A model generated the notes under the pieces. It was not told the DNA's origin. It was given only the letters and a program-made list of their open reading frames with translations, and did not search any database. Below, in pieces: positions 27,698 through 39,154 of a DNA stretch of 64,000 nt. Origin of the DNA: Candidatus Latescibacterota bacterium (GTDB lineage: Bacteria > Latescibacterota > UBA2968 > UBA8231); the NCBI GenBank assembly GCA_965248355.1, contig OZ252098.1, forward strand, positions 1,504,001-1,568,000. Reading direction: 5' to 3'. The translations under genes and the position numbers were made by a program. Numbering within the stretch: the first letter of the stretch is position 1; every line of letters begins with the position of its first letter.

Positions 27698-30600
27698 CTA
27701 CCGCAGCAGCACCAGGCGCCCCGTGGCCCGTTCCGGGCCGGCGGTCAGGCGAACGAGGTAGACCCCGCTGGCCGCCGGCCGTCCCTGGTCGTCGGCGCCC
27801 CTCCAGACCACCCGGAAGCGTCCGGGACCGGCCGACGCCTCGTCCCGCAGGGTGCGCACCCGGCGGCCGAGAACGTCGTAGACCACCAGCTGCAGCGGCG
27901 AGGCCGCGGGCAGGTCGAAGTCGATGGAGGCGGCGGCGTTGAAGGGATTGGGCCACGGGCTTCGCAGGGCGAACTCCAGCGGCGGCTCTGCCGCCCCCTC
28001 CGCGACCGAAGTGGCCGGCGGCTCCCCGGTCAGGAAGGGGGTCCACACCATGGCCCCGGACAACTGCGCGGCGATCTCGTCCGGGTCGGTGGAGCCCCAG
28101 TAGTTGCCTCGCGCGTCGAGCTCCACGTCGCTGCGGTTCTCCACGGCGAGACCGTTGCCGGTGAAGACGTTGTCCCCGATCGGGTCGGGCACCGCCGGCC
28201 CGTCGACGCGCAGGGCCGTGACGTTGCCGTCGAAGCGGTTGCCGACCACGGCGGGGGCCGAGTCGACCGAATGGAGGGCCACGGCGGCGTTGACGAACTC
28301 GCTGGTGCGGACCGCGGCGGCCCGGGTCCCGGTCAGGGTGGCGCCGTTGGCCGTGAAGTGGCTCATCTCCACCGCCACCGTGCCGCCTTCCACCCGCAGG
28401 CCGGCGCCGAGGTTGCGGTCGAAGTCCGTGGTCCACACCTCCGACGCCGTCGACGCGAGATAGGCCCCGGTGCCGCGGTTGCGATGCACCTCCACCTCCT
28501 CGAAGACCACCCTCTCGGCGCCGTCGACGCGCAGGCCGTCGCGGCGGTTGGCGGTGACGGTCGTGCCGTGGAGCTCGACCACGCCCCTCCAGTCGTCCAG
28601 CTCCAGCCCGTGCCCCTCGTTCTCCTCCACCCGGCTCCGCCACAGCTCGATGCGGCCGCCCACGCCACCCTCCGCGGCCAGCCCCGAGCGCGGATCGCCG
28701 CTGTCGAGGGCCCCATTGTCCATGATGCGCGTATCGATCAACTCGAGACCGGCGTTGCTGGTGACCACTCCCTCCCGGCCGTTCTCCTCCACGACGCTGC
28801 TGCGCATCCGCAGGCGGCCCGGCCCCCGCACCCAGACGGCTCGATCGAGGATGGAGCGGAAGGTGCTGCGGTCGATGCTCGCCAGGCCGAAGAGGCGCAG
28901 ATCGACGCCCCGAAACATCCGCTGCAGGCGGCCGTCGATCAGGCGGAAGCCGCCGTCGGCCGTCATCTCGCCGCCGATCCCGATGACGGCCTGATCCAGG
29001 CTGAGACCGGTGGCGTCGATGGCCCCCCCGGCGGCCAGCCGGAGGCCCGCCCACAGGTCCTCGGGCAGGGACGAGTCGACGGTGAGGACCGCCGGGCCGG
29101 CGGCGGTGCCGGAGACGGTCAGGCGGCCCTCCACGACCAGCTCGGTGTGGGCCGGCATCTGCCCCCGACGGGACCGGTCCGGCGTCGCGAACCGGGTCTC
29201 CGAGCCGGATGCGATGCGCAGCCGGGCCCCGGCGGGCACCAGCAGGTCCCAGGGGATCGTGCGCTTCCCCCTCCACTCCGTCGTCCCCTCCGGCAGGCGA
29301 TCCCGCGCGATGCCGAGGCGCGCGCCCTCCAGGACCAGGCCTCCGGCGTCGCGGGCCGGCTCCAGCCCGGCGCTGCCGCCGCCGAAGACCAGCACTCCCA
29401 GCCACCCGCTCCCGTCCGACTTCGTCAGGCGCACCGGCGCCGCGCTGCCGCCCTCGACCACCAGCTCCCCGTAGACGATGAGCTCGCAGCGGCCGGGGTC
29501 GAAGCCGGTGCCGCGGCTGTCGGCGGCGGCGAAGCTCACCCTCGTGCCGGCGGCCAGGGTCAGAGTCGCCCCCGGCTCGACGACGACGTCCCCCTCCACG
29601 GCCACCTCGCCCGACCACCGCCGGGATCCGCCGATATTGCCTTCCACGGGCTGCTGGAGCAGCACGTCCAGGCGCATGCGGCCGTCCTCGAGAGCGGTGA
29701 TCCGGTCGAGGACCAGGCCCAGGGGAACCCCGCGGCGGTGGCCGGCGTGGGCGCGCAGGCCGGGGTTGGTGTCGAGGGCGAGGCGCCGGTACCTCACCCC
29801 GTCGAAGGGGTCGGTGGCGTCGCCTTCGTTGCCGTTGTGGTCGCTCGCGTAGCCGGCGTCCTTGGCCCAGAAATCAAGGTTGTCGCCCCCCGCCACCGGG
29901 TCGGGCGGGCCGCCGGGGAAACCGCGGTCGGCATAGAGCCCGTCGGCGCACACCAGGTCGACCTGCTTGTGCCGCTCCTCGTCGTTGTCGGCGCGCTCGT
30001 CCACGTGCCAGATGAGGAGCCCGCCGGCCGGGATGTTGCGGTTGTAGTGGCCGTGGGCCTGGCGGTTCTCGATCAGGAAGTACTCGTCGGGCGTGAGGCT
30101 CACCTTGAGCACCCGTCCGCCGCGGTCCATCGACTCCAGCTCCACCCCCCGCAGCGACTCGGTCACCTCCACGAGGCGCTCGTTGCCCGGGCCGAGCCAG
30201 CCCAGCCGGGCCAGGGACCAGGCGGAGAACGCGTTCGGCCCGTCCTCGTGTCCCCAGCCGAGGATCCCCAGCCCCATGAGGCCCCACTTGCCGATGCCGG
30301 CCGATTCCTCCGCCGGGTCGAGCTCGCCGAGGGCCGTGACCGAGGACTGGTCGAAGAGGTCGGGCAGGCCGAGGAGGTGGGCGAACTCGTGGCACATGGT
30401 CCCCGCCGTCACCCCGAAGACGTGCCCCCGCTGGGTCGTTCCGGCGAACCTGGAGAACTGGTTGCGCACCCGGATGACGCCGCCGCCGGCGGCCGGGTCG
30501 TCGGATAGGAAGTCGGACTTCAGCCCCAGGCTGGCGATGCCCGTGGCCCTGGTGATGAAGAAGTTCTCGGGAGCCGTGAGCAGGTTGATGAACAGGATGT

Positions 30601-31087
30601 CCACGTAGCCGTCGTCGTCGCCGGAGTTCGGCACGCCATCGGGGCCGTCGTTGTCGAAGTCGCCCAGGTCGACCTCGGGGTCGGCCTGCTCCAGGATTTC
30701 GAGATTGAAGCGGCCGAAGTCACCAAGGGTGGCGGAGGTGTCGGCGAGGTAGGCGGAGGCCGGGCTGCGCGACTCGTAGCGGCGGGGCAACACCCTTCCG
30801 GAGACCCGCAGCTGCCCGCCGGACATCTCGTTGTAGAAGTGGGTGAAGCTGCCCGGCAGGCCCTCGTCGAAGAGGTCGTCCGCCCACGACGGCTTCTTGT
30901 CGACACCTGGGGCCTCGCCGGCGAACTTGGCGAACACCACGAGGGCGCTGTAGCTGCCCGTGGCGGCCCCGGGGGGAGCGTAGGCCGACGGTCGGGCCGA
31001 GGGGTCGCCGGGCTGCGAGGCGGCGACGGGGCCGGCCACAAGGCCCAGCAGGACCGGCCAGGCCGCCGCCAGCCGGCGGGCCGTCAC
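27698..31087 (-). CDS. Secreted immune inhibitor A (M6)-like metalloprotease with beta-helix repeats and FlgD-Ig/T9SS-like tail (~1129 aa)
   Basis: Signal peptide; DFDNDGPDG...DDDGYVD, HEFAHLLGLPDL, WGLMGLG, EYFLIENRQ, GLLIWHVDE; parallel beta-helix repeats; DARGNYWG; WPNPFN...ASGVYLVRL...LVLLR. GTG overlaps the pafA stop. Confidence 0.88.
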   Translation of the reverse strand: MTARRLAAAWPVLLGLVAGPVAASQPGDPSARPSAYAPPGAATGSYSALVVFAKFAGEAPGVDKKPSWADDLFDEGLPGSFTHFYNEMSGGQLRVSGRVLPRRYESRSPASAYLADTSATLGDFGRFNLEILEQADPEVDLGDFDNDGPDGVPNSGDDDGYVDILFINLLTAPENFFITRATGIASLGLKSDFLSDDPAAGGGVIRVRNQFSRFAGTTQRGHVFGVTAGTMCHEFAHLLGLPDLFDQSSVTALGELDPAEESAGIGKWGLMGLGILGWGHEDGPNAFSAWSLARLGWLGPGNERLVEVTESLRGVELESMDRGGRVLKVSLTPDEYFLIENRQAHGHYNRNIPAGGLLIWHVDERADNDEERHKQVDLVCADGLYADRGFPGGPPDPVAGGDNLDFWAKDAGYASDHNGNEGDATDPFDGVRYRRLALDTNPGLRAHAGHRRGVPLGLVLDRITALEDGRMRLDVLLQQPVEGNIGGSRRWSGEVAVEGDVVVEPGATLTLAAGTRVSFAAADSRGTGFDPGRCELIVYGELVVEGGSAAPVRLTKSDGSGWLGVLVFGGGSAGLEPARDAGGLVLEGARLGIARDRLPEGTTEWRGKRTIPWDLLVPAGARLRIASGSETRFATPDRSRRGQMPAHTELVVEGRLTVSGTAAGPAVLTVDSSLPEDLWAGLRLAAGGAIDATGLSLDQAVIGIGGEMTADGGFRLIDGRLQRMFRGVDLRLFGLASIDRSTFRSILDRAVWVRGPGRLRMRSSVVEENGREGVVTSNAGLELIDTRIMDNGALDSGDPRSGLAAEGGVGGRIELWRSRVEENEGHGLELDDWRGVVELHGTTVTANRRDGLRVDGAERVVFEEVEVHRNRGTGAYLASTASEVWTTDFDRNLGAGLRVEGGTVAVEMSHFTANGATLTGTRAAAVRTSEFVNAAVALHSVDSAPAVVGNRFDGNVTALRVDGPAVPDPIGDNVFTGNGLAVENRSDVELDARGNYWGSTDPDEIAAQLSGAMVWTPFLTGEPPATSVAEGAAEPPLEFALRSPWPNPFNAAASIDFDLPAASPLQLVVYDVLGRRVRTLRDEASAGPGRFRVVWRGADDQGRPAASGVYLVRLTAGPERATGRLVLLR

Positions 31088-32511
31088 ACCCCGGCGCCCC
31101 GCACGTCCGGCGCCCGGCCGCATTCCTTGATGAAGGCGTCGGTCTCCGCCTCGTAGGAGAGGAAGGGATCGTCGAGGTTGAGGTACTTCTCGTCCTCCAC
31201 GTAGATCGAGTCCCAGTCGATGACGTAGCGCGCCTTGTGGCCGGAAAGGGCGCGCATCACCTTCGACCGCGCCAGCGCCCGCGTGTCGCCGGGAGGTTTG
31301 ACGATCGCCAGGTTCACCTGCTCGTCGTCGACCACGGTGCGGAGCAGGCCTCGCTGCCGCAGATCGTGGTAGAGGCCGCGGGCCGGATTCAGGTTGTGGT
31401 ATTCCAGGTCCAGCGACTGGATCCAGGGGTCGTCCCAGTCCCGCCCTTCCGCCTCCATGAAGGTCTCCAGGAGCCACTTCTTCGTCACCCAGTCGAGCCG
31501 GTCCATCAGGGCCATGGGGTCGCAGGCCAGGGCGTCGAGGACGAAGCGCCACTCGTCGAGGACCCAGTCCCCCTCCGGATCCTTGCCGCGCAGGTAGGTC
31601 TCGGCCAGCTGCAGGTACTGGCGCTGCACCTCCAGGGCCGTCGTGTAGCGGCCGTCCTCGAGCTGCACCTCCCACTTGAAGGTCAGGTCGCGGGAGATGT
31701 CGCGGATCGCCTGCACCGGGTCGAGCATCTTCACGTCGGGCACAACCCGCTCCTCGAGCAGCTCGAGCATGAGGGCCGTGGTGCCCACCTTCAACGCCGT
31801 GGCGTACTCCGACATGTTGGAATCGCCCACGAGCAGGTGCAGCCGGCGGTAGAGGCCCCAGTCGGCCAGCGGCTCGTCGCGCGTGTTGATGATGGCGCGG
31901 CTGAACTGGATCCACTGGTAGATCTCGGTGACGATGTGGTCGGCCCGCTGCGAGATCTGGTACGGCACCTCCCCTTCCTCGCCGGTGCCGTACTCGAAGA
32001 TGTCGGTGTGGCAGCCCACGCGTCCGGCGCCCGCGTAGATCTGCCGGCTCACGAAGAAGGGCAGGATCGCCGGCAGCAGGACCTGCGAGAACGGCACGTC
32101 CCGGCGGACCAGGTAGTTCTCGTGGCAGCCGAAGGTGGCGCCCGTGTAGTGGTCGATGTTGTTCTTGAAGAACCCGGCCTCTTCCGCCAGTCCCAGCTGG
32201 TCGAGGGCGCGCTGCATGATCACCTCGCCGGCGCGGTCCGAGGCGACCAGGTCGAAGAGGCCGCGGCACTCGGGCGTGGCGTACTCCACGTGCCCCATGT
32301 CGATGTAGACGCGCCCGCCGTTGAACAGGAAGCCGCCGTTGCCCGGCGGCTCGTCGCGCCCCCGGTAGTGGATGTCGACGATGCCCAGCCGCTCCCGGTA
32401 GAACACGCAGTCCTTGGTCTTCAGGGAGATGTAGTCGGGGCTGAGGAAGGGATCGGAGTCCGGCGGCATGCAGCCGTACTCGATCTCGAGGCCGTAGAGG
32501 CGGTTGCGCAT
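31084..32511 (-). CDS. pafA: Pup/UBact--protein ligase (PafA family)
   Basis: YGLEIEYG, FLFNGGRVYIDMGHVEYATPEC, KNNID, GCHENY, ISQRADH, RAIINTRDEP, RRLHLLVGDSN, LDLEYH. Confidence 0.92.
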   Translation of the reverse strand: MRNRLYGLEIEYGCMPPDSDPFLSPDYISLKTKDCVFYRERLGIVDIHYRGRDEPPGNGGFLFNGGRVYIDMGHVEYATPECRGLFDLVASDRAGEVIMQRALDQLGLAEEAGFFKNNIDHYTGATFGCHENYLVRRDVPFSQVLLPAILPFFVSRQIYAGAGRVGCHTDIFEYGTGEEGEVPYQISQRADHIVTEIYQWIQFSRAIINTRDEPLADWGLYRRLHLLVGDSNMSEYATALKVGTTALMLELLEERVVPDVKMLDPVQAIRDISRDLTFKWEVQLEDGRYTTALEVQRQYLQLAETYLRGKDPEGDWVLDEWRFVLDALACDPMALMDRLDWVTKKWLLETFMEAEGRDWDDPWIQSLDLEYHNLNPARGLYHDLRQRGLLRTVVDDEQVNLAIVKPPGDTRALARSKVMRALSGHKARYVIDWDSIYVEDEKYLNLDDPFLSYEAETDAFIKECGRAPDVRGAGV

Positions 32512-32512
32512 G

Positions 32513-33280
32513 CTACTCGAAAGCGGCCAGGGAGGGCGCCAGCTCCCTCTGGCTCAACAGGCGGAACTTGGTCTTCGTCGGCCGGCTGCGCTGGAGCACG
32601 GCCGCCTCGATGCGGCCGCTGCCGAGGGCGCCGCCGATGGCTTGGCGCACCTCCGGCTCGCCCACCTCCCCCTCCCCCGGCCCTTCGGGGCCGGCCTCGG
32701 CCAGGGCCCGGCCCGCCCCCCAGGCGCCCAGGGCCCGCGCCAGGGCGCCCTCCAGGGAGTCGCTGCCGGCGCCGCCGCCCAGCCGCGCCAGGATGGCCTC
32801 GGCGCCCTTCCCGCTGCCGGCGATCACGGCCGCCTCCGCGGTGCTGCTGAAGGAGCCGTCGGGATCGATGGTGTAGAACGTCTCGGCCGGGTCCGCCGGG
32901 TCGAGCTCGGCCACGAGCACGCGGGCGATGTAGGGCGAGCGGAAGATCTCGTCGAAGGCGGACTTCATCTGGGGGCCCACGCCGAGGTTGACCAGCCGCT
33001 GCAGGGGGATGTCGCTGGCCGACAGGTTGAAGACCTCCACGTGGGCGATGTCGATGACCGCCTTGCGCAGCTTCTCGATGTCGGCGGGATGGCCGATGCC
33101 GGCGAAGGCCACCTGGTTGTAGACCTCGAAGAGCTTGCGCGGCCCCGGCGTCGAGGTGAGCAGCAGCAGGCCGTCGTCGTAGGCCAGGCCGACGACGGGG
33201 CTGGCGCCCTGGAGCTGGTCCTCGGTGTACTCGCGCCGGTTGCGGATCGCCTCGACCCAGCGATAGGGCTCGTCCAGCAT
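32513..33280 (-). CDS. prcA: 20S proteasome alpha subunit
   Basis: EPYRWVEAI.NRREY, SPVVGL, RKLFEVYNQVAFAGIGHPADIEKLR; lies between prcB and pafA with TGATG coupling. Confidence 0.88.
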   Translation of the reverse strand: MLDEPYRWVEAIRNRREYTEDQLQGASPVVGLAYDDGLLLLTSTPGPRKLFEVYNQVAFAGIGHPADIEKLRKAVIDIAHVEVFNLSASDIPLQRLVNLGVGPQMKSAFDEIFRSPYIARVLVAELDPADPAETFYTIDPDGSFSSTAEAAVIAGSGKGAEAILARLGGGAGSDSLEGALARALGAWGAGRALAEAGPEGPGEGEVGEPEVRQAIGGALGSGRIEAAVLQRSRPTKTKFRLLSQRELAPSLAAFE

Positions 33281-34053
33281 CAGGCGCCCAGGCCCGCGTA
33301 GACCTGGGACAGCTCCGCCTCGGTGACCGTGGAGATGCCCTCGCCGGTGACCCGCATCACCTGGGGATAGACGGCGGAAGCCGCCTTGAAGCCGCCCGTG
33401 GCCGTGTCGTACTCGGCCGCCGTCTCCAGCATCTTCACCACCAGCTGCAGGGCCTCGGCCCCGCTGCGGTCGGCGAAGGGCCGTTCCCAGCGGTTCAGGT
33501 AGTAGAGGGAGCCCCGGATGATGGGCGAGCCGGAGCCGGTGGTGCAGAAGTCGACCGACTCGAAGGTGGCCCCGAGCACGTCGTAGAAGAAGATCTTCCC
33601 CGGCGGACCGGAGCCCGCGTCCTCGCAGGTGGCGTAGATGGGGACCACGGCGCCGATCCCCTGCAGGGCCAGGGGCAGGTTCTCGCGCAGCAGCCGCGAC
33701 AGGGTGCGCAGCCGGCCATCGAGGCTCAGCTCCTGCAGCTGGGTGCGCCGGTAGTGCTGGAAGGAGATCTCCAGCATGCGGGCGATCTCGTAGGCGCTGG
33801 CCGGAGATCCGGACAGGGCCAGCACCGAGCGGTCGTCCACGGCGAGCACCTTGTCGGCGCGGTCGTGGATGACGGTGTGGCCCGCCGTGGCCCGGCGGTC
33901 GCCGGCGACGAGCACCCCCTCGGCGTAGCGCACGGCGAGGATGGTCGTGCCCTCGGCGGCCTCGCCGGCGGAGGCCACGGGACCCGGGACCCCGGGCGCG
34001 GGCGGCAGCTGCCCGCGCTCCTTGAGGATGTTGAGGAAGTCGGCGCTCTCCAT
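33280..34053 (-). CDS. prcB: 20S proteasome beta subunit
   Basis: Short propeptide then G|TTILA (Thr1 nucleophile), AGDRRATAG, DKV, TGSGS, DTATGG. Confidence 0.92.
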   Translation of the reverse strand: MESADFLNILKERGQLPPAPGVPGPVASAGEAAEGTTILAVRYAEGVLVAGDRRATAGHTVIHDRADKVLAVDDRSVLALSGSPASAYEIARMLEISFQHYRRTQLQELSLDGRLRTLSRLLRENLPLALQGIGAVVPIYATCEDAGSGPPGKIFFYDVLGATFESVDFCTTGSGSPIIRGSLYYLNRWERPFADRSGAEALQLVVKMLETAAEYDTATGGFKAASAVYPQVMRVTGEGISTVTEAELSQVYAGLGA

Positions 34054-34075
34054 GAGCCGCGGAGGCCCCGGTGAG

Positions 34076-34270
34076 CTACTGGCCTGTACGCTGGCGGTAT
34101 CGGCGCGCCTGGTTCGGATCGACCCGGCGCATGCGGCGCAGCAGGTCGTCGGTCTCGGGCCGCTCCACCTTGGGACGCCTCGGTCCCTGGTCGTCTCCGC
34201 CGTCGTCGCCCCCGTCCATCGGCCGCGGCGGCCGGGTGGCGCGCTCACCCATTTCGAATGCTCGCCTCAT
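34076..34270 (-). CDS. ubact: UBact prokaryotic ubiquitin-like protein (64 aa, C-terminal RTGQ)
   Basis: Small, disordered-looking ORF in the pup position with a GGAG RBS; ends LLRRMRRVDPNQARRYRQRTGQ, the R[T/S]G[E/Q] UBact signature rather than Pup GG[E/Q]. Confidence 0.9.
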   Translation of the reverse strand: MRRAFEMGERATRPPRPMDGGDDGGDDQGPRRPKVERPETDDLLRRMRRVDPNQARRYRQRTGQ

Positions 34271-34286
34271 GGAAAGCTCCCTCGTC

Positions 34287-35819
34287 TCACCGCTTGGGCG
34301 CCGCTTCGGACAGGGCCGCCAGCAACTCGGCCACAGACCCCGCCCGCTCGAGCTTCTCGTTGAAGATAGCCGCCGACTCGGCGTCGACACAACTCTTCAA
34401 ATCGACCGTGGCCAGCCCTCCGTCGACCTGGAATTCGATGCTGTCCCAGTTCAGCGAGCGCACGGCGGCCCCGAACTTCTCCACCGCCCTCCCCCGGAAC
34501 CGGGCCCGCGTGCGCTCCGGCGGTTCCACGAGGGCGCGCTCCACGCCGGCATCGTCGCTCAGGCGGAACACGCCTCCCCCTTCGGAGCGCTCCAGCAGCA
34601 GGAACAGCCCCTCCTCGGGATCGACGTTGTGGTACTCCAGGTCCTGGCTCTGCAGCCAGGCGCGGTGGCCGGGGTCGTTCCAGTCGAGTCCCTCGGCCTC
34701 GGCGAAGGTGTCGAGGAGCCACTTCTTCGTCACCCAGTCGCAGCGGCCGATCAGCGGCGCCGGGTCGCCGCCGAGGGCGTCGAGGGCGAAGCCCCACTCG
34801 CGAAGAGCCCAGTCGGTCTCGGCGTCCCGGCCGGAGGCCAGCTCCCGGGCCCGGTCGAGGAAGGCCCGCTGGATCTCGATCGCCGTCGTGGTCCGGCGGT
34901 CCTCCAGCTCCACCTCCCAGCGGCGGCTCGGATCTCGGCTGATCGACTTCACCGCCCCCACCGGGTCGGCGAGCACCAGCCCCGGGGCGTGTCCGGCCTC
35001 CAGCAGCTCCAGGACGAGGCGCAGGGCCCCCACCTTCAGCGCCGTGGCCCACTCGCACAGGTTGGCGTCGCCGACGATGATGTGCAGGCGCCGGTAGCGG
35101 GCGGCGTCGGCGTGGGGCTCGTCTCGGGTGTTGACCAGGGGCCGGCGGGTCATGGTGTCGACGCTGGCGATGACCTCGAAGAAGTCGGACCGCTGGGCCA
35201 GCTGGTAGAGACCCGGGTCGGCCCGGGAATCGGTCTCCACCCCGACCTTGCCGGCGCCGGCGTAGATCTGGCGGGTCACCAGGAAGGGCAGCAGGGCGGC
35301 GATCACGTCGTCGAAGGGGATCGACCGGGGCAGCAGGAAGTTCTCGTGGCAGCCGTAGCTGTGGCCCTCGAAGTCGGTGTTGTTCTTGTAGAGGCGCACC
35401 ACCCCCCGGCCGCGGCGGGCGCTGCGCCGGCGGGCGCAGTGCAGGAGGATGCGCTCGCCGGCCCGGTCCTGGGCCACCAGGTCGGCCAGGGTCAGGCACT
35501 CGGCGGTGCTGTACTCGGGATGGGTGTGGTCGTTGTAGAGGCGCGCGCCGTTGCCGAGGATCAGGTCGGACTTGAGGTCCTTCAGGGGGATCTTCCGGGC
35601 CCGGTCCTGCTGCAGGTGCTCGGTCTCGTCGAGGTCGTTCAGCAGCTGGTCGACCTCGAAGCCGCGCATGTCCCGGCGCGGGTTCTCCAGGCCGTAGTCC
35701 CAGCGCGCGACGAAGTCCTCCCGCAGGTAGCCGCGGATCAGCTCCATCGACTCGACGACGACGTCGAGGTCGTCCACGCCGTCGACCTGGATGCCGTACT
35801 CGGTCTCCAGGCCGAACAT
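34287..35819 (-). CDS. dop: Deamidase/depupylase (Dop family)
   Basis: FGLETEYG, WDYGLENPRRDMRGF, NGARLYNDHTHPEYSTAEC, KNNTDFEGHSYGCHEN, QRSDFFE, RPLVNTRDEPHAD. Confidence 0.92.
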   Translation of the reverse strand: MFGLETEYGIQVDGVDDLDVVVESMELIRGYLREDFVARWDYGLENPRRDMRGFEVDQLLNDLDETEHLQQDRARKIPLKDLKSDLILGNGARLYNDHTHPEYSTAECLTLADLVAQDRAGERILLHCARRRSARRGRGVVRLYKNNTDFEGHSYGCHENFLLPRSIPFDDVIAALLPFLVTRQIYAGAGKVGVETDSRADPGLYQLAQRSDFFEVIASVDTMTRRPLVNTRDEPHADAARYRRLHIIVGDANLCEWATALKVGALRLVLELLEAGHAPGLVLADPVGAVKSISRDPSRRWEVELEDRRTTTAIEIQRAFLDRARELASGRDAETDWALREWGFALDALGGDPAPLIGRCDWVTKKWLLDTFAEAEGLDWNDPGHRAWLQSQDLEYHNVDPEEGLFLLLERSEGGGVFRLSDDAGVERALVEPPERTRARFRGRAVEKFGAAVRSLNWDSIEFQVDGGLATVDLKSCVDAESAAIFNEKLERAGSVAELLAALSEAAPKR

Positions 35820-35833
35820 GCGGACAGGGCCCG

Positions 35834-37510
35834 TCAGATGACGCTTCCGGAGGGGCCGGGCGGCCGGGGGCGGTCGGGGACGGCGGACCGGGGGTTCACG
35901 CGCACCACGTTCTCGGGGTCGTAGTCGAGGAGCTTGAGCCAGTCCTCGACGCTGTCGCTTGGCGGGAAGACCTCGCTCTCGCGGTACTCGGCGCGCACGG
36001 CGTCGAGCAGGTCCTGCTCGCTCACACCGGCGCCGTCCGGACCTCCCGCGGCGATGGCCCGCTTGATGGCCGTCTCCTTGGCCCGCTGCACGATGTTGTC
36101 GATCAGGGCCCCGGAGGCCAGGTCTCCGAAGTGGAGGCTCTCGGTGCGGCCGCTGCGCAGCGCCACCTCGAGGACCCGGGTCTCCCCGGTGCGCGCGAAG
36201 AGGGCCTTGACCGCCGACGCGATCAGGAACTGCCGCGCCGCCTCGGTCCCGTCGTGATCCCGCACGGCCCCGGGGTCGAGGGGCAGTTGGGGACCGAGGT
36301 AGAGGCCGAAGATCTCCTCGGCGGCCTCCCGGTCGGGCCGGTCGACCTTGATCTTGCGGTCGATCCGCCCCGGGCGCAGGATCGCCGGGTCGATCAGATC
36401 GTGGCGGTTGGAGGCCAGGATGATGACCACGTCCTGCAGCGACTCGATGCCGTCCATCTCGGTACAGAACATGGGGACCACGGTGTTGGCGATGTGGTGG
36501 CTGCGCATCGACCGCCGGGTGCCCAGAATCGACTCGGCCTCGTCGATGAAGATGAAGGGCAGGAAGCCCTCCCCGCGCTTCTGCCGGGCCTGGGCGAAGA
36601 TCTCGCGGACCATGCGCTCGGTCTCGCCGAGCCACATGTTGAGGATCTCCGGCCCCTTGATGTGCATGAAGTACTCCTCCACCTGCAGGCCCTCCTCCTC
36701 GCGCAGATGCTGCACCAGGCTGTAGGCGGTGGCCTTGCCGATCAGGGTCTTGCCGCAGCCGGGGGGGCCGTAGAGCAGGAATCCCCTGGGCGTGGAGTAC
36801 TCGAACCTCTCGAACAGCTCCGGGTGCAGGGCGGGCAGCTCGATCGTGTCCCGGATCGCCCGGATCGCCTCTTCCTGGCCGCCGATGCGGCTCCAGGGCA
36901 CGGGCGGGATGTCCTCGAGGAAGTACTCCCGGCTCTGCTTCGAGGACAGGCGCTCCAGGGCGACCTTCATCGACGGGTCGGTGCGCACCTCGTCGCCCAC
37001 CTTCAGATTCACGTCGGCCAGGGCCTCGGCGCGCTCGAGGACGAGATCGGTGGTGCCGTGCTCGTTGCCGAGGCGCAGCCGGCCGTCGTCGAGCAGGTCG
37101 GAGACGCGGCCCACCGGCCCGGCCGGCGCGGCCCCCATGAGCCCGACGATGGCGTAGGCCTCGTTGATCAGCACCCGCCCGCCCACGGTGAGGTCGGCGG
37201 GGTTCACGCGGGGGTCGATGTTGGCGTAGTACTCGGAACCACCGACGAAGACGGTGGCCACCCCCTCCTTCGGAGAGCCCAGGAAGATGCCCACGCGGTT
37301 GGCCGGGGCCGTGACCTTCTCCAGCGCCGTCTCGAGCTCGACGAGGGCCCGCCGCGCCTCCTGGAAGGTGATCTCGCGCTCCAGCAACTGCCGGCGCAGC
37401 TGGTACACGAGAGGCCGCGCCGGGTCGCGCTCGGGCAGGCTCAGAAGGACCTGGTCGACGAGCCGCAGGGGCTCGTCGACGTGCTCCTCCTCCGGGTCGC
37501 CCCCTCGCAA
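35834..37510 (-). CDS. mpa: Proteasome-associated AAA ATPase (Mpa/ARC family); true start may be upstream (~37582)
   Basis: N-terminal coiled coil, OB-like region, IGG, ELPALHPELF, GPPGCGKT, IKGPEILNMWLGE, FIDEAE, DPAILRPGRIDRKI. Confidence 0.93.
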   Translation of the reverse strand: MRGGDPEEEHVDEPLRLVDQVLLSLPERDPARPLVYQLRRQLLEREITFQEARRALVELETALEKVTAPANRVGIFLGSPKEGVATVFVGGSEYYANIDPRVNPADLTVGGRVLINEAYAIVGLMGAAPAGPVGRVSDLLDDGRLRLGNEHGTTDLVLERAEALADVNLKVGDEVRTDPSMKVALERLSSKQSREYFLEDIPPVPWSRIGGQEEAIRAIRDTIELPALHPELFERFEYSTPRGFLLYGPPGCGKTLIGKATAYSLVQHLREEEGLQVEEYFMHIKGPEILNMWLGETERMVREIFAQARQKRGEGFLPFIFIDEAESILGTRRSMRSHHIANTVVPMFCTEMDGIESLQDVVIILASNRHDLIDPAILRPGRIDRKIKVDRPDREAAEEIFGLYLGPQLPLDPGAVRDHDGTEAARQFLIASAVKALFARTGETRVLEVALRSGRTESLHFGDLASGALIDNIVQRAKETAIKRAIAAGGPDGAGVSEQDLLDAVRAEYRESEVFPPSDSVEDWLKLLDYDPENVVRVNPRSAVPDRPRPPGPSGSVI

Positions 37511-37595
37511 GCGCTCGTCTTCGAAAGGATCGAACTCGTCGCCGCGGGAGCGGCGGCCGGGGCGTTCTCCATCCTCGGCGATCGGGGACCGGCTC

Positions 37596-38318
37596 CTAGT
37601 GAAGGACCGTGCCCAGTCTGGAGTAGCGGGACCGGAAGGGCAGGGTGGGAAGGTTCAGCAGGAAGTTGCCCGCGTCGAGCACCATCCTCGGCAGTCCGTG
37701 GATCAGGGGACCGTGCACCAGGGTCGAGGACCAGTAGATGATCATCGCCTTGCCCTTGACCCGCCCCCTGGGCACCGGACCGAAGATGCGGCTGTCCTTG
37801 CTGTTGTCGCGGTTGTCTCCCATCATGAAGAAGTGGCCCTCGGGGATGCGCAACGGTCCCAGGTTGTCCCGCGAGCTCATCGACCCCGGCAGGATCGCGC
37901 CCTCCGTGAACTTGCCGAGCGGCGGCAGGTGGTAAGGCTTGCCGTCCACGAGCAGTCCCTTCCCGCGGATCTCCACGATCTGGCCCCCCACGGCGACGCA
38001 GCGCTTGATGAGATCGCGCCCCGGCTCGGTGAGAGAGCGGAAGATTACGATGTCCCCCGCCCGCGGATCGCGCAGGGCGGGCAGCCGGAAGAGGGGGCCG
38101 TCCATTCCGGGCAGCTCGAGGGGAGCGCCGTAGATGAACTTGTTGGCGAGGAGGTAGTCGCCCTTGAGGAGGGTGTCCTCCATCGACGCGGAGGGGATGT
38201 AGAAGGCCTGCACCACGGAACTGCGGATGAGCAGGGCGAGGCCGACGGCGACGACGATGGACGACCCGTACTGGCGGGCGCCGCCGCCTCTGGGGGACGG
38301 GGAAGGCTGGCTCGGCAT
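37596..38318 (-). CDS. lepB: Signal peptidase I
   Basis: TM segment, AFYIPSASMEDTL..GD, LIKRCVA, FMMGDNRDNSKDSR.FG. Confidence 0.95.
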   Translation of the reverse strand: MPSQPSPSPRGGGARQYGSSIVVAVGLALLIRSSVVQAFYIPSASMEDTLLKGDYLLANKFIYGAPLELPGMDGPLFRLPALRDPRAGDIVIFRSLTEPGRDLIKRCVAVGGQIVEIRGKGLLVDGKPYHLPPLGKFTEGAILPGSMSSRDNLGPLRIPEGHFFMMGDNRDNSKDSRIFGPVPRGRVKGKAMIIYWSSTLVHGPLIHGLPRMVLDAGNFLLNLPTLPFRSRYSRLGTVLH

Positions 38319-38325
38319 GATTCCG

Positions 38326-38354
38326 AGTATAGCAAAGCGCCCTCTCCATGTAAA
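38326..38354 (-). promoter_or_regulatory. Sigma70 promoter for the lepB-proteasome operon (leaderless)
   Basis: TTTACA-N17-TATACT with an extended TG; ATG 7 nt after the -10 box; no SD. Confidence 0.7.
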
Positions 38355-38398
38355 CGCGGTTCGGCCGCCGGGCTTCCCTGTCGCCTGCTGCGGTCGGG

Positions 38399-39154
38399 TC
38401 AGCCCGGGAATCCCTCCGGCGGATGGCGAAATAGCCGGGGTCCCCGAAGGCCGGGAACATGCCGAACCCCCGCTCCAAGTCCCGCCGCTCCCACACGAGG
38501 CCGGTCTCGCAGTAGCTCAGCGACCCGTGTCCCGGGGGTGAGAACCGGGGCTGCGCCAGCAGGTCGGCGCGGGGCCAGAGGCTGCGGTGCCGGAAGCACA
38601 GACCCCTCTCGAGGTTCTGCTCGACGAACTCGATCATGTGCGGGAAGGTGCGCTGAAAGGCGGTGCCGGCTCCGTACTCGATGCGGGCCCCGACCGAGGC
38701 GCCCGCCGACTGGATCTCGGTCATCGACATGGGGGTCCCGCCCTGGACGAAGAGGGCGTCCAGGTTGGGATCGACGACGATCCACTTCTCCCACTCCGGG
38801 GCCCAGACCTCGGCCACGAAGTGGCCGTTGAAACCGTTCACCGCCTCGGTGAGCGCGGCGCAGCGGGCGGGGAGGCCCACGGACTGGCAGGCGCTGACGA
38901 AGCTGGCGGCGTAGTGCACGCACATCAGGATCGGCCGCTGGCCGTTGTGCCCCTGCCGCTCCGCCCCCCAGGAGAGAGCGGTCTCCGCGTCCCAGGGTCC
39001 GTAGAGGTGGGTACGGGCGCGCCAGCAGGAAGACCTCGGCCGGCGCCGCCGTGGCCGGCAGGTCGAGGATCTTGCGGGCCCGGCGGAACCGGGTCAGCTC
39101 CTCGCACAGGGAGGGGATGACGCGGCCCTCCTCCGTGTGGTAGAGGCGGCTCAC
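38399..39154 (-). pseudogene. Transglutaminase-like domain protein, frameshifted and probably internally deleted
   Basis: MCVHY...GHFVAEVW...KWIVVDP (Cys-His-Asp) core in one frame; the N-terminus and the last codons are in another frame (shifts near 39005 and 38426). Confidence 0.65.

What the first reader, a model, noticed from the sequence alone, without database searches (positions are those of the whole stretch)
31084..37582. Complete UBact-proteasome system (mpa-dop-ubact-prcB-prcA-pafA) in a diderm, FCB-like genome
Seen: six contiguous co-oriented genes in the actinobacterial Pup-proteasome order, but the 64-aa tag ends ...VDPNQARRYRQRTGQ. Known: Pup ends GG[E/Q], while R[T/S]G[E/Q] defines UBact, which was described mainly from genome context; to my knowledge its conjugation and substrates are little characterised. 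Inference: the terminal Gln must be deamidated by the Dop homologue before PafA ligation, and PrcB keeps its G|TT autoprocessing site, so the pathway looks intact.
Basis: partly seen in the sequence, partly recalled or inferred. Interest (0 to 1): 0.8.

Follow-up and report, generated by a model that had tools for sequence, protein, structure and literature searches.

The report
Ordinary UBact-proteasome operon, already annotated
This is an intact six-gene operon for a bacterial ubiquitin-like tag (UBact), its two handling enzymes, an unfoldase and a 20S proteasome in an uncultured Latescibacterota/Gemmatimonadota-type bacterium; it is real, but it is a typical copy of a system that public databases already name in this lineage.

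Summary
Six minus-strand genes, separated by 14, 16, 22, -1 and 1 bases, encode an Mpa-like ATPase, a Dop-like enzyme, a 64-residue UBact ending RTGQ, PrcB, PrcA and a loop-less PafA-like enzyme.

- **The tag:** it passes the curated UBact models, and no Pup model reached E 0.01.
- **How common it is:** the UBact model hits 128 of 168 genomes of the phylum. The same gene order holds in 66 of 80 related loci.
- **Already annotated:** the window's exact tag sequence is in public collections, and a cluster mate is named 'ubiquitin-like protein UBact' in GenBank. This scan has noted such tagging loci 44 times, three of them complete UBact-proteasome operons in Latescibacterota.

So it is a known kind and of low interest.

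- Relatives end in Glu (40) or Gln (33), and all keep the Dop-like gene.
- The 'PafA' is below NCBI's PafA cut-off. In a maximum-likelihood tree it is sister to its own Dop-like partner (support 97/96), but an AU test does not reject orthology with PafA (p 0.197).
- The ATPase ends in Val-Ile, not the penultimate-Tyr motif of Mpa.

No biochemical study of UBact turned up in the library searched.

The parts
35834..37510 (-). Mpa/ARC-like proteasomal AAA+ ATPase (558 aa): N-terminal helix, two OB domains and an AAA module with Walker A GPPGCGKT and pore loop W293-L294-G295. It has a C-terminal tail ending S-V-I.
   Evidence: Pfam: Prot_ATP_ID_OB_N 52.7 bits, Prot_ATP_ID_OB_C 42.3 and AAA 108.3. 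TIGR03689 scores 458.7 bits, below its cut-off of 504.75. The best solved relatives are Mpa/ARC (5kwa, 7px9; E 1e-100). W293, L294 and G295 are invariant in 33 sequences. The tail ends in V/I-V/I in most of 77 relatives, and none has a penultimate Tyr.
34287..35819 (-). Dop-like deamidase/de-conjugase candidate (510 aa) with GLETE, a full Dop-loop insertion and the catalytic Asp97-His98.
   Evidence: TIGR03688 scores 425 bits against 346 for PafA, both below their cut-offs. It aligns end to end with Acidothermus Dop 4b0r, including the loop (E 3e-114). The motif Y-N-D-H-[TA]-H-P-E is present in 79 of 79 related loci.
34076..34270 (-). UBact, a 64-aa ubiquitin-like tag ending RTGQ.
   Evidence: PF20513 scores 78.0 bits (cut-off 27.8) and NF033388 scores 79.1 (cut-off 35); no Pup model reached E 0.01. 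The C-terminus VDPNQARRYRQRTG[EQ] is present in 73 of 73 related loci where the tag was found. Codon-position pattern of purifying selection. A GenBank cluster mate is named UBact.
33280..34053 (-). 20S proteasome beta subunit PrcB (257 aa) with a 35-residue propeptide, cleavage site G35|T36, and Asp17 and Lys33 of the mature chain.
   Evidence: Pfam Proteasome 83.9 bits. TIGR03690 scores 160.9, below its cut-off of 191.9. The mature Rhodococcus beta chain 1q5q_H starts at query residue 36. Thr-Thr-Ile is present in 73 of 73 loci; residue -1 is Gly in 62 and Ala in 11.
32513..33280 (-). 20S proteasome alpha subunit PrcA (255 aa). Its start codon overlaps the prcB stop codon by one base.
   Evidence: Pfam Proteasome 26.9 bits (cut-off 22.4). 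TIGR03691 scores 63.7, below its cut-off of 139. The best solved relatives are the mycobacterial and Rhodococcus alpha subunits (E 6e-10). It holds this position in the 66 complete loci.
31084..32511 (-). Loop-less Pup-ligase-family enzyme (475 aa), the candidate UBact ligase ('PafA-like'), with GLEIE and the catalytic Asp71 followed by Met-Gly-His.
   Evidence: Pup_ligase 466.3 bits. TIGR03686 scores 366.6 and TIGR03688 scores 364.4, both below their cut-offs. Solved Dop scores 290 bits, above solved PafA at 262. It has no Dop loop, and Y-[IL]-D-M-G-H is present in 68 of 68 loci. GenBank names its relatives 'proteasome accessory factor PafA2 family protein'.

Best explanation
This is an intact, vertically inherited UBact-proteasome operon that most likely works like the actinobacterial Pup-proteasome system.

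Proposed steps:
1. The disordered 64-residue UBact is made with a C-terminal Gln.
2. The loop-bearing Dop-like enzyme deamidates that Gln to Glu. It probably also removes the tag from proteins.
3. [quoted passage not shown]
4. The Mpa-like hexamer binds the tag and threads the tagged protein through its W-L-G pore loops into the PrcA/PrcB 20S particle. PrcB has first exposed Thr1 by self-cleavage after Gly35.

Shown here: gene identities, intact catalytic motifs, tight operon structure, purifying selection on the tag, conservation across the class, and presence of the locus in RNA libraries.

Inferred by analogy only: deamidation, ligation to lysine, which paralogue does which step, binding of the tag by the ATPase, and docking of the ATPase on the proteasome.
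For: - **Family assignments:** all six genes are assigned by curated models and by their nearest solved structures.
- **Only two such enzymes:** the whole genome holds two Pup_ligase genes, both in this operon.
- **Dop-like enzyme:** it has the Dop loop, Asp-His in 79 of 79 relatives, and the Dop-type QR[AS][DE]FFE start of the alpha-loop in 77 of 80 (3 not matched by the pattern).
- **Other enzyme:** it lacks the loop and has Asp-Met-Gly-His in 68 of 68 relatives. By my mapping it carries PafA-type residues at 6 of the positions that Hecht et al. found to separate PafA from Dop: Phe41, Phe54, Ala72, His188, Ser200 and Asp439 in C. glutamicum numbering (Table 1 of PMC7947786, read; mapped through).
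- **Tag ending:** among relatives the tag ends in Glu in 40 loci and Gln in 33, and the Dop-like gene is kept in all of them. That fits a de-conjugase role as well as deamidation.
- **Gene order:** it is kept in 66 of 80 loci.
- **Spread:** the UBact model hits 128 of 168 genomes of the phylum, and 125 of 131 in the four families of the window's class, G000 not counted.
- **RNA libraries:** metatranscriptome contigs from two runs of one study span dop-ubact-prcB at about 99% identity. X16 record 4 covers 33485-34914 with 11 differences, and X17 record 11 covers 32805-34250 with 21.
Against: - No biochemical evidence exists for any step, in this organism or, as far as my searches of the held library go, for any UBact system.
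- Five of the six proteins score below NCBI's equivalog cut-offs for the actinobacterial proteins: 458.7 against 504.75, 425 against 492.3, 366.6 against 551.3, 160.9 against 191.9, and 63.7 against 139.
- The presumed ligase has an alpha-loop unlike PafA's at 7 of the 9 mapped positions, and keeps Dop-type Ser27 and Pro103.
- The ATPase lacks the penultimate tyrosine that is described as the main determinant for docking to the 20S particle (PMC8755798, passages read).
- A profile of 33 UBact sequences finds no solved chain, Pup included, even at E 10. Binding of UBact in the way Pup binds therefore cannot be argued from sequence.
- RNA-library contigs may contain DNA and cannot show a single transcript.
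Confidence: 0.85

Rival explanations
1. The loop-less enzyme is not an orthologue of actinobacterial PafA. In this reading the ligase and hydrolase of this UBact clade arose by a separate duplication of a Dop-like ancestor, so the division of labour evolved in parallel with Actinobacteria. The roles could also be distributed differently, for example with both enzymes bifunctional.
For: In the careful tree (IQ-TREE, LG+C20+F+G4; 64 representatives plus the two window proteins), the window's PafA-like clade (8 rows, support 100/100) is sister to its Dop-like clade (8 rows, 100/96) with support 97/96. Proteins above NCBI's PafA and Dop cut-offs lie on the other side. Two quick trees gave the same split, with support 98 and 96. 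Solved Dop outscores solved PafA, 290 against 262 bits. In the whole-library search, Dop-like proteins of the sister clade (341-311 bits) outrank PafA proteins that pass NCBI's cut-off (258-268 bits). Most of the alpha-loop matches neither enzyme.
Against: The AU test does not reject a tree that holds the 8 PafA-like rows together with the 21-row PafA-side clade: the log-likelihood difference is 14.5 and p-AU is 0.197. The group was named after I had seen the tree. The protein shares rare characters with PafA: Asp before the conserved Trp, two extra residues at the same place before it, Gly after the catalytic Asp, and Phe54, Ala72, His188 and Ser200. Hecht et al. report that Nitrospirae PafA and Dop group with their actinobacterial namesakes (PMC7947786, section 5 passages). 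The tree is unrooted, and 14 rows have deviant composition.
Confidence: 0.25
2. The tag and the proteasome are encoded together but the coupling differs from Mpa-20S. In this reading the ATPase does not dock by its C-terminus, or docks in a different way, and tagging serves mainly for regulation or for unfolding without degradation.
For: No penultimate Tyr is found in the window or in 0 of 77 related ATPase C-termini; the penultimate residue is Val in 64, Ile in 9, Thr in 2, Ala in 1 and Ser in 1. In Mpa the penultimate Tyr of GQYL is called the main binding determinant (PMC8755798). Tagging modules without a proteasome exist in other phyla (PMC2588565, passages; unchecked scan notes).
Against: The ATPase tail is itself conserved: an aliphatic pair ends 73 of 77 relatives, which suggests a docking motif of different chemistry, not the loss of one. 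The six genes stay in one tight string in 66 of 80 loci. PrcB keeps Thr1, Asp17 and Lys33.
Confidence: 0.12
3. It is a canonical Pup system recently acquired from Actinobacteria, or a decaying remnant.
For: The gene order is the actinobacterial one. Hecht et al. proposed that the pathway spread horizontally from Actinobacteria to other phyla (PMC7947786).
Against: No Pup model reached E 0.01, and the tag ends RTGQ, not GG[EQ]. The G+C content of the operon (0.69-0.72) matches the rest of the window (0.68-0.76). The UBact model hits nearly every genome of the class, 125 of 131. All frames are open with catalytic motifs intact, and the tag is under purifying selection.
Confidence: 0.02

Closest known systems
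UBact conjugation/proteasome loci of Gram-negative phyla (Lehmann, Udasin, Livneh, Ciechanover 2017, BBRC 483:946; Pfam PF20513; NCBIfam NF033388)
   Same: The tag passes both curated UBact models and ends RTG[EQ]. The locus has the same six-gene content. GenBank already names cluster mates of this tag 'ubiquitin-like protein UBact' in Gemmatimonadaceae, Gemmatimonadota and Latescibacterota genomes.
   Different: Nothing essential. I could not open the 2017 paper (I saw only its reference), so I cannot say whether this phylum was on its list. From recall only, the paper named Nitrospirae, Verrucomicrobia, Armatimonadetes, Nitrospinae, Planctomycetes and some candidate phyla.
Actinobacterial Pup-proteasome system (Mycobacterium tuberculosis mpa, dop, pup, prcB, prcA, pafA)
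   Same: The gene order is the same, and so are the enzyme families: carboxylate-amine ligase fold with GhExE and a catalytic Asp, an AAA+ ATPase with two OB domains and an aromatic-hydrophobic-Gly pore loop, and a Thr1 proteasome. The C-terminal Gln/Glu dimorphism of the tag is also shared.
   Different: The tag is not recognised by Pup models and ends RTG[EQ]. All five partner proteins score below NCBI's equivalog cut-offs. The ligase candidate has Asp-Met-Gly-His in place of Asp-Val-Gly-Ser-His, its own alpha-loop, and a short conserved insert where the Dop loop would sit. The ATPase ends in Val-Ile, not GQYL. All six genes are contiguous.
Proteasome-less Pup-like tagging modules (Rhodopirellula, Plesiocystis; Iyer, Burroughs, Aravind 2008, PMC2588565)
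   Same: A small tag with a G[EQ] end lies next to a PafA-family enzyme outside Actinobacteria (passages read).
   Different: Those modules have no proteasome genes and carry membrane-inserted ligases. Here the full proteasome and the ATPase are present, and the two enzymes align with soluble Dop and PafA with no long insert after the Dop-loop region.

Membership tests
UBact (PF20513 / NF033388) | Scores above the curated cut-offs of the family models | tested here: met
   78.0 bits against 27.8, and 79.1 bits against 35. The match runs to the last residue of both profiles.
   The window ends RTGQ. Of 73 relatives, 40 end RTGE and 33 end RTGQ.
UBact (PF20513 / NF033388) | Encoded next to Pup-ligase-family enzymes, an Mpa-like ATPase and 20S subunits | tested here: met
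   Six contiguous genes. The same order holds in 66 of 80 loci.
UBact (PF20513 / NF033388) | Covalent attachment to lysines of target proteins | not testable with these tools
   This needs biochemistry or proteomics. I found no such study in the held library.
Pup (actinobacterial tag) | Recognised by Pup family models; ends GG[E/Q] | tested here: not met
   The Pfam and NCBIfam scans at E 0.01 or better returned only UBact. A 33-sequence UBact profile found no solved chain at E 10 or better, Pup chains included. The tag ends TGQ.
Dop (TIGR03688, depupylase/deamidase) | Score above the equivalog cut-off | tested here: not met
   425 bits against a cut-off of 492.3. Still, Dop scores above PafA (346) for this protein.
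Dop (TIGR03688, depupylase/deamidase) | Dop-loop insertion, His after the catalytic Asp, and a Dop-type alpha-loop (Hecht et al. 2020, Table 1) | tested here: met
   The loop aligns with 4b0r residues 5-97. Asp97-His98 is present, and the motif holds in 79 of 79 relatives. By my mapping, 11 of the Table 1 positions are Dop-type or conservative, 3 are PafA-type, 5 are neither and 1 could not be placed.
PafA (TIGR03686, Pup--protein ligase) | Score above the equivalog cut-off | tested here: not met
   366.6 bits against a cut-off of 551.3, and a tie with Dop at 364.4. Solved Dop scores 290, above solved PafA at 262.
PafA (TIGR03686, Pup--protein ligase) | No Dop loop, and PafA-type residues at the discriminating positions (Hecht et al. 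2020, Table 1) | tested here: inconclusive
   It has no Dop loop, only a short clade-specific insert. It is PafA-type at Phe41, Phe54, Ala72, His188, Ser200 and Asp439, and Dop-type at Ser27, Pro103 and Glu212. It matches neither at 11 positions, which include most of the alpha-loop (the mapping is my own).
PafA (TIGR03686, Pup--protein ligase) | Groups with PafA, apart from Dop, in a family tree | tested here: inconclusive
   The maximum-likelihood tree puts it beside its own Dop-like partner (97/96). The AU test does not reject a PafA clade (p 0.197).
Mpa/ARC (TIGR03689) | Coiled-coil/OB/OB/AAA architecture with an Ar-Hb-Gly pore loop | tested here: met
   Both OB domains and the AAA module are found. 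W293-L294-G295 is invariant in 33 sequences. The best solved relatives are Mpa/ARC. The coiled coil itself was not tested. The score of 458.7 is below the cut-off of 504.75.
Mpa/ARC (TIGR03689) | C-terminal docking motif with a penultimate Tyr (GQYL) | tested here: not met
   The window ends S-V-I, and 0 of 77 relatives have a penultimate Tyr. The motif definition comes from PMC8755798.
Bacterial 20S proteasome (TIGR03690 / TIGR03691) | Beta subunit with a propeptide, Thr1, Asp17 and Lys33; an alpha subunit as partner | tested here: met
   G35|T36, with D17 and K33 of the mature chain, read from the sequence; the mature start is fixed by 1q5q_H. Thr-Thr-Ile is present in 73 of 73 loci. The alpha subunit matches PrcA structures. 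Both subunits are below the equivalog cut-offs.

The most novel reading that the evidence does not exclude
In this large UBact clade (Latescibacterota/Gemmatimonadota-labelled genomes plus unnamed relatives), the tag ligase did not descend from the same duplication as actinobacterial PafA. It arose separately from a Dop-like ancestor. A hydrolase/ligase pair on one fold would then have evolved twice. The same clade also replaced the penultimate-Tyr docking tail of the ATPase with a conserved aliphatic Val-Ile tail.
Probability: 0.2. Interest if true: 0.55.

Novelty: already known. Interest (0 to 1): 0.2.

Why it matters
As a discovery it matters little. The system is catalogued in Pfam and NCBIfam, is named in GenBank for this very lineage, is present in most genomes of the phylum, and has been met repeatedly in this scan.

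Its residual value is as material for the open question of whether and how UBact is conjugated, since I found no biochemical study. This clade offers three things for that work:
- Natural Gln-ended and Glu-ended tags side by side.
- A ligase candidate whose discriminating residues are a mosaic of PafA and Dop. That makes it a natural test of the substitution paths mapped by Hecht et al.
- An ATPase tail without the tyrosine thought to be essential for docking.

The organism is uncultured, so any test must be heterologous.

Tried and rejected
- **Complex prediction:** Complex prediction (ATPase residues 20-135 in two copies, with UBact) was not available. Binding of the tag to the ATPase stays untested.
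- **The 2017 UBact paper:** it is not held. I saw only its reference.
- **UBact against solved structures:** the UBact profile found nothing at E 10 or better.
- **AU test:** it did not reject orthology of the PafA-like clade with PafA (p 0.197), so I do not claim an independent origin.
- **Recent gene conversion between the two paralogues:** I considered and rejected this. In related loci the PafA-like query matches the Dop gene at 43-50% identity, about the same as its identity to Dop-like proteins of other clusters, 45-48%.
- **LpxC:** the model found no match in the genome. I leave that as an observation and not as evidence against a diderm envelope, because BamA and SprA are present.
- **RNA runs X18 and X19:** they hold only small shares at 90-99% identity, probably from relatives. 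Parts of the operon without contig cover say nothing.
- **My own motif patterns:** the first ones for the catalytic-Asp region missed about half of the loci. They were replaced by a wider pattern whose misses I read by eye.
- **Literature:** searches for a proteasome or pupylation in Latescibacteria or Gemmatimonadetes gave nothing specific. I saw search listings only.
Full report
**What is there.** The ORF list and a check of start codons give six genes on the minus strand:
- mpa-like, 35834-37510
- dop-like, 34287-35819
- a 64-codon ORF, 34076-34270
- prcB, 33280-34053
- prcA, 32513-33280
- pafA-like, 31084-32511

The gaps between them are 14, 16, 22, -1 and 1 bases, so this is one tightly packed string. 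G+C across the operon (0.69-0.72) does not differ from the rest of the window (0.68-0.76).

**Gene identities.**
- **ATPase:** Pfam finds the two proteasomal-ATPase OB domains and an AAA module. Its best solved relatives are Mpa/ARC.
- **Enzymes:** both are Pup_ligase family members, at 466 and 501 bits. They are the only two in the 5.5-Mb genome.
- **Proteasome subunits:** PrcB and PrcA match the bacterial proteasome subunits and the mycobacterial and Rhodococcus structures. The mature Rhodococcus beta chain aligns from query residue 36, which fixes the cleavage site at G35|T36. Asp17 and Lys33 of the mature chain are present in the sequence.
- **Cut-offs:** all five proteins fall below NCBI's equivalog cut-offs for their actinobacterial namesakes. 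They are relatives of those proteins, not members of the narrow families.

**The tag.**
- **Family:** the small ORF scores 78.0 bits on Pfam UBact (cut-off 27.8) and 79.1 bits on NCBIfam UBact (cut-off 35). No Pup model reached E 0.01. A profile of 33 UBact sequences finds no solved chain at E 10 or better.
- **Conservation:** in 73 of 80 related loci a homologue was found, and all 73 carry VDPNQARRYRQRTG followed by Glu (40) or Gln (33).
- **Selection:** DNA differences in the last 35 codons fall mainly on third positions (0.158, 0.079 and 0.532 per site). The frame is therefore translated and under selection.
- **Dop-like gene:** it is kept in Glu-ended and Gln-ended lineages alike. That argues it does more than deamidate, most simply tag removal, as Dop does.

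**Which enzyme does what.**
- **The 510-residue protein.** It aligns with Acidothermus Dop from end to end, Dop loop included. It has Asp-His at the catalytic site, as do 79 of 79 relatives.
- **The 475-residue protein.** It lacks the loop and has Asp-Met-Gly-His, as do 68 of 68 relatives.
- **Mapping onto Hecht et al.** I mapped both onto the positions that Hecht et al. (PMC7947786; Table 1 and sections 5-7 read) found to separate Dop from PafA.
  - The Dop-like protein is Dop-type or conservative at 11 positions.
  - The loop-less protein is PafA-type at six (Phe41, Phe54, Ala72, His188, Ser200, Asp439) and Dop-type at three. It matches neither at eleven, including most of the alpha-loop. 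The mapping is mine, made by eye from the alignments.
- **Conclusion.** The ligase role of the loop-less protein is the best guess, but 'PafA' is not a tested membership. It ties on the two NCBI models (366.6 against 364.4), and solved Dop outscores solved PafA (290 against 262 bits).

**Family tree.**
- **Sampling:** I searched 1.84 billion representatives with the loop-less protein. From P0121-P0199 I took the 64 that are not fragments, out of 150 listed, and labelled them with NCBI's PafA and Dop models. I then built trees with the two window proteins added.
- **Result:** the careful tree (LG+C20+F+G4) places the window's loop-less clade (8 rows) as sister to its Dop-like clade (8 rows) with support 97/96. 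The four proteins that pass the PafA cut-off and the ten that pass the Dop cut-off sit on the other side. Two quick trees agree.
- **Test:** an AU test does not reject the alternative in which the loop-less clade joins the 21-row PafA-side clade (log-likelihood difference 14.5, p 0.197). I had defined that group after seeing the tree.
- **Reading:** given the shared rare characters with PafA, I treat a separate origin as possible and not shown.

**The ATPase tail.** In Mycobacterium, Mpa docks on the 20S particle by a C-terminal GQYL motif whose penultimate tyrosine is described as the main binding determinant (PMC8755798, passages). Here the protein extends about 20 residues beyond the end of the family profile and ends Ser-Val-Ile. 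None of 77 related tails has a penultimate Tyr, and 73 end in an aliphatic pair. The tail is conserved, so a docking role is still plausible, with different chemistry.

**Host and spread.**
- **Host:** relatives of the Dop-like gene lie in assemblies labelled Candidatus Latescibacterota, Gemmatimonadota and the like. Both phyla are in NCBI's FCB group. The genome encodes BamA (487 bits) and SprA, and the gene next to the operon carries a type IX sorting tail. An LpxC model found nothing.
- **Spread:** the UBact model hits 37 of 41 near relatives and 128 of 168 genomes of the phylum. Hits are concentrated in the four families of the window's class, 125 of 131, and none were found in most other families.
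- **Gene order:** all six genes are in the same order in 66 of 80 loci. Of the other 14, most are cut by contig ends, three Chthoniobacterales loci lack the tag and proteasome genes beside dop, and one locus (L041) shows only mpa and dop, a break I did not look into.

**Expression.** Five RNA libraries hold parts of the stretch. Contigs from two metatranscriptome runs of one study span dop-ubact-prcB and prcA-prcB-ubact at about 99% identity. This is compatible with transcription, but contigs cannot exclude DNA carry-over and cannot show one transcript.

**What is known.**
- **Published work:** Pup-like systems outside Actinobacteria were predicted in 2008 (PMC2588565, passages) and named UBact in 2017. 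I saw only the reference for that paper, because the paper itself is not held.
- **Database annotation:** the window's exact tag sequence is in public collections on 19 contigs. A mate in its 90% cluster is 'ubiquitin-like protein UBact [Gemmatimonadaceae bacterium]', and other clusters carry the same name in Latescibacterota and Gemmatimonadota. The enzymes are named 'proteasome accessory factor PafA2 family protein'.
- **This scan:** it has 44 earlier notes on such tagging loci, several without a proteasome; three describe complete UBact-proteasome operons in Latescibacterota, and all three were judged a known kind.
- **Biochemistry:** five full-text searches found no biochemical study of UBact.

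**Verdict.** The system is already known and common, so interest is low. The paralogue tree and the tyrosine-less ATPase tail are the only points that go beyond annotation, and neither is established as new.

Noticed in passing
window 35834-35900 (3' end of mpa-like): The ATPase ends S-V-I on a tail about 20 residues beyond the family profile. None of 77 relatives has the penultimate Tyr of the GQYL/HbYX docking motif; 73 end in an aliphatic pair.
   Followed up: partly
window 37596-38318 (-) and 27698-31000 (-): Signal peptidase I lies 85 bases upstream of mpa, and is in that position in 36 of 80 related loci. A large M6-like metalloprotease with a beta-helix and a FlgD_ig/type IX sorting tail follows the pafA-like gene; long matches are seen only in the closer sub-lineage. 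An earlier scan note (e1-4620324) reported the same neighbours.
   Followed up: partly
window 38336-39154 (-): A transglutaminase-like ORF matches only profile positions 54-108 of PF01841 from its second residue. The 75 codons upstream lie in another frame. This may be a frameshift, an assembly error or a split gene.
   Followed up: no
whole genome G000: The LpxC model (TIGR00325) finds no match in a genome that is 95.7% complete, although BamA and SprA are present.
   Followed up: no
protein P0166 (677 aa): This protein has an ECF sigma-70 region (residues 1-180) fused to a PafA-side Pup-ligase domain (residues 216-647). It may be a true fusion or a gene-calling artefact.
   Followed up: no
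G028:C69:7179-7576; also G102 and G125: One relative has two UBact-model matches about 150 bases apart on one contig, a possible tandem pair of tag genes. Two other genomes have two matches each, on separate contigs.
   Followed up: no
L041 (13.5 kb locus): This Latescibacterota relative has mpa and dop, but no detectable tag, proteasome or pafA-like gene in the 6 kb downstream.
   Followed up: no
related loci L011-L090, prcB: The residue before the proteasome's Thr1 is Ala, not Gly, in 11 of 73 loci (sequence ...PT[DEN]A|TTILA). Gly-1 is therefore not invariant in this clade.
   Followed up: no
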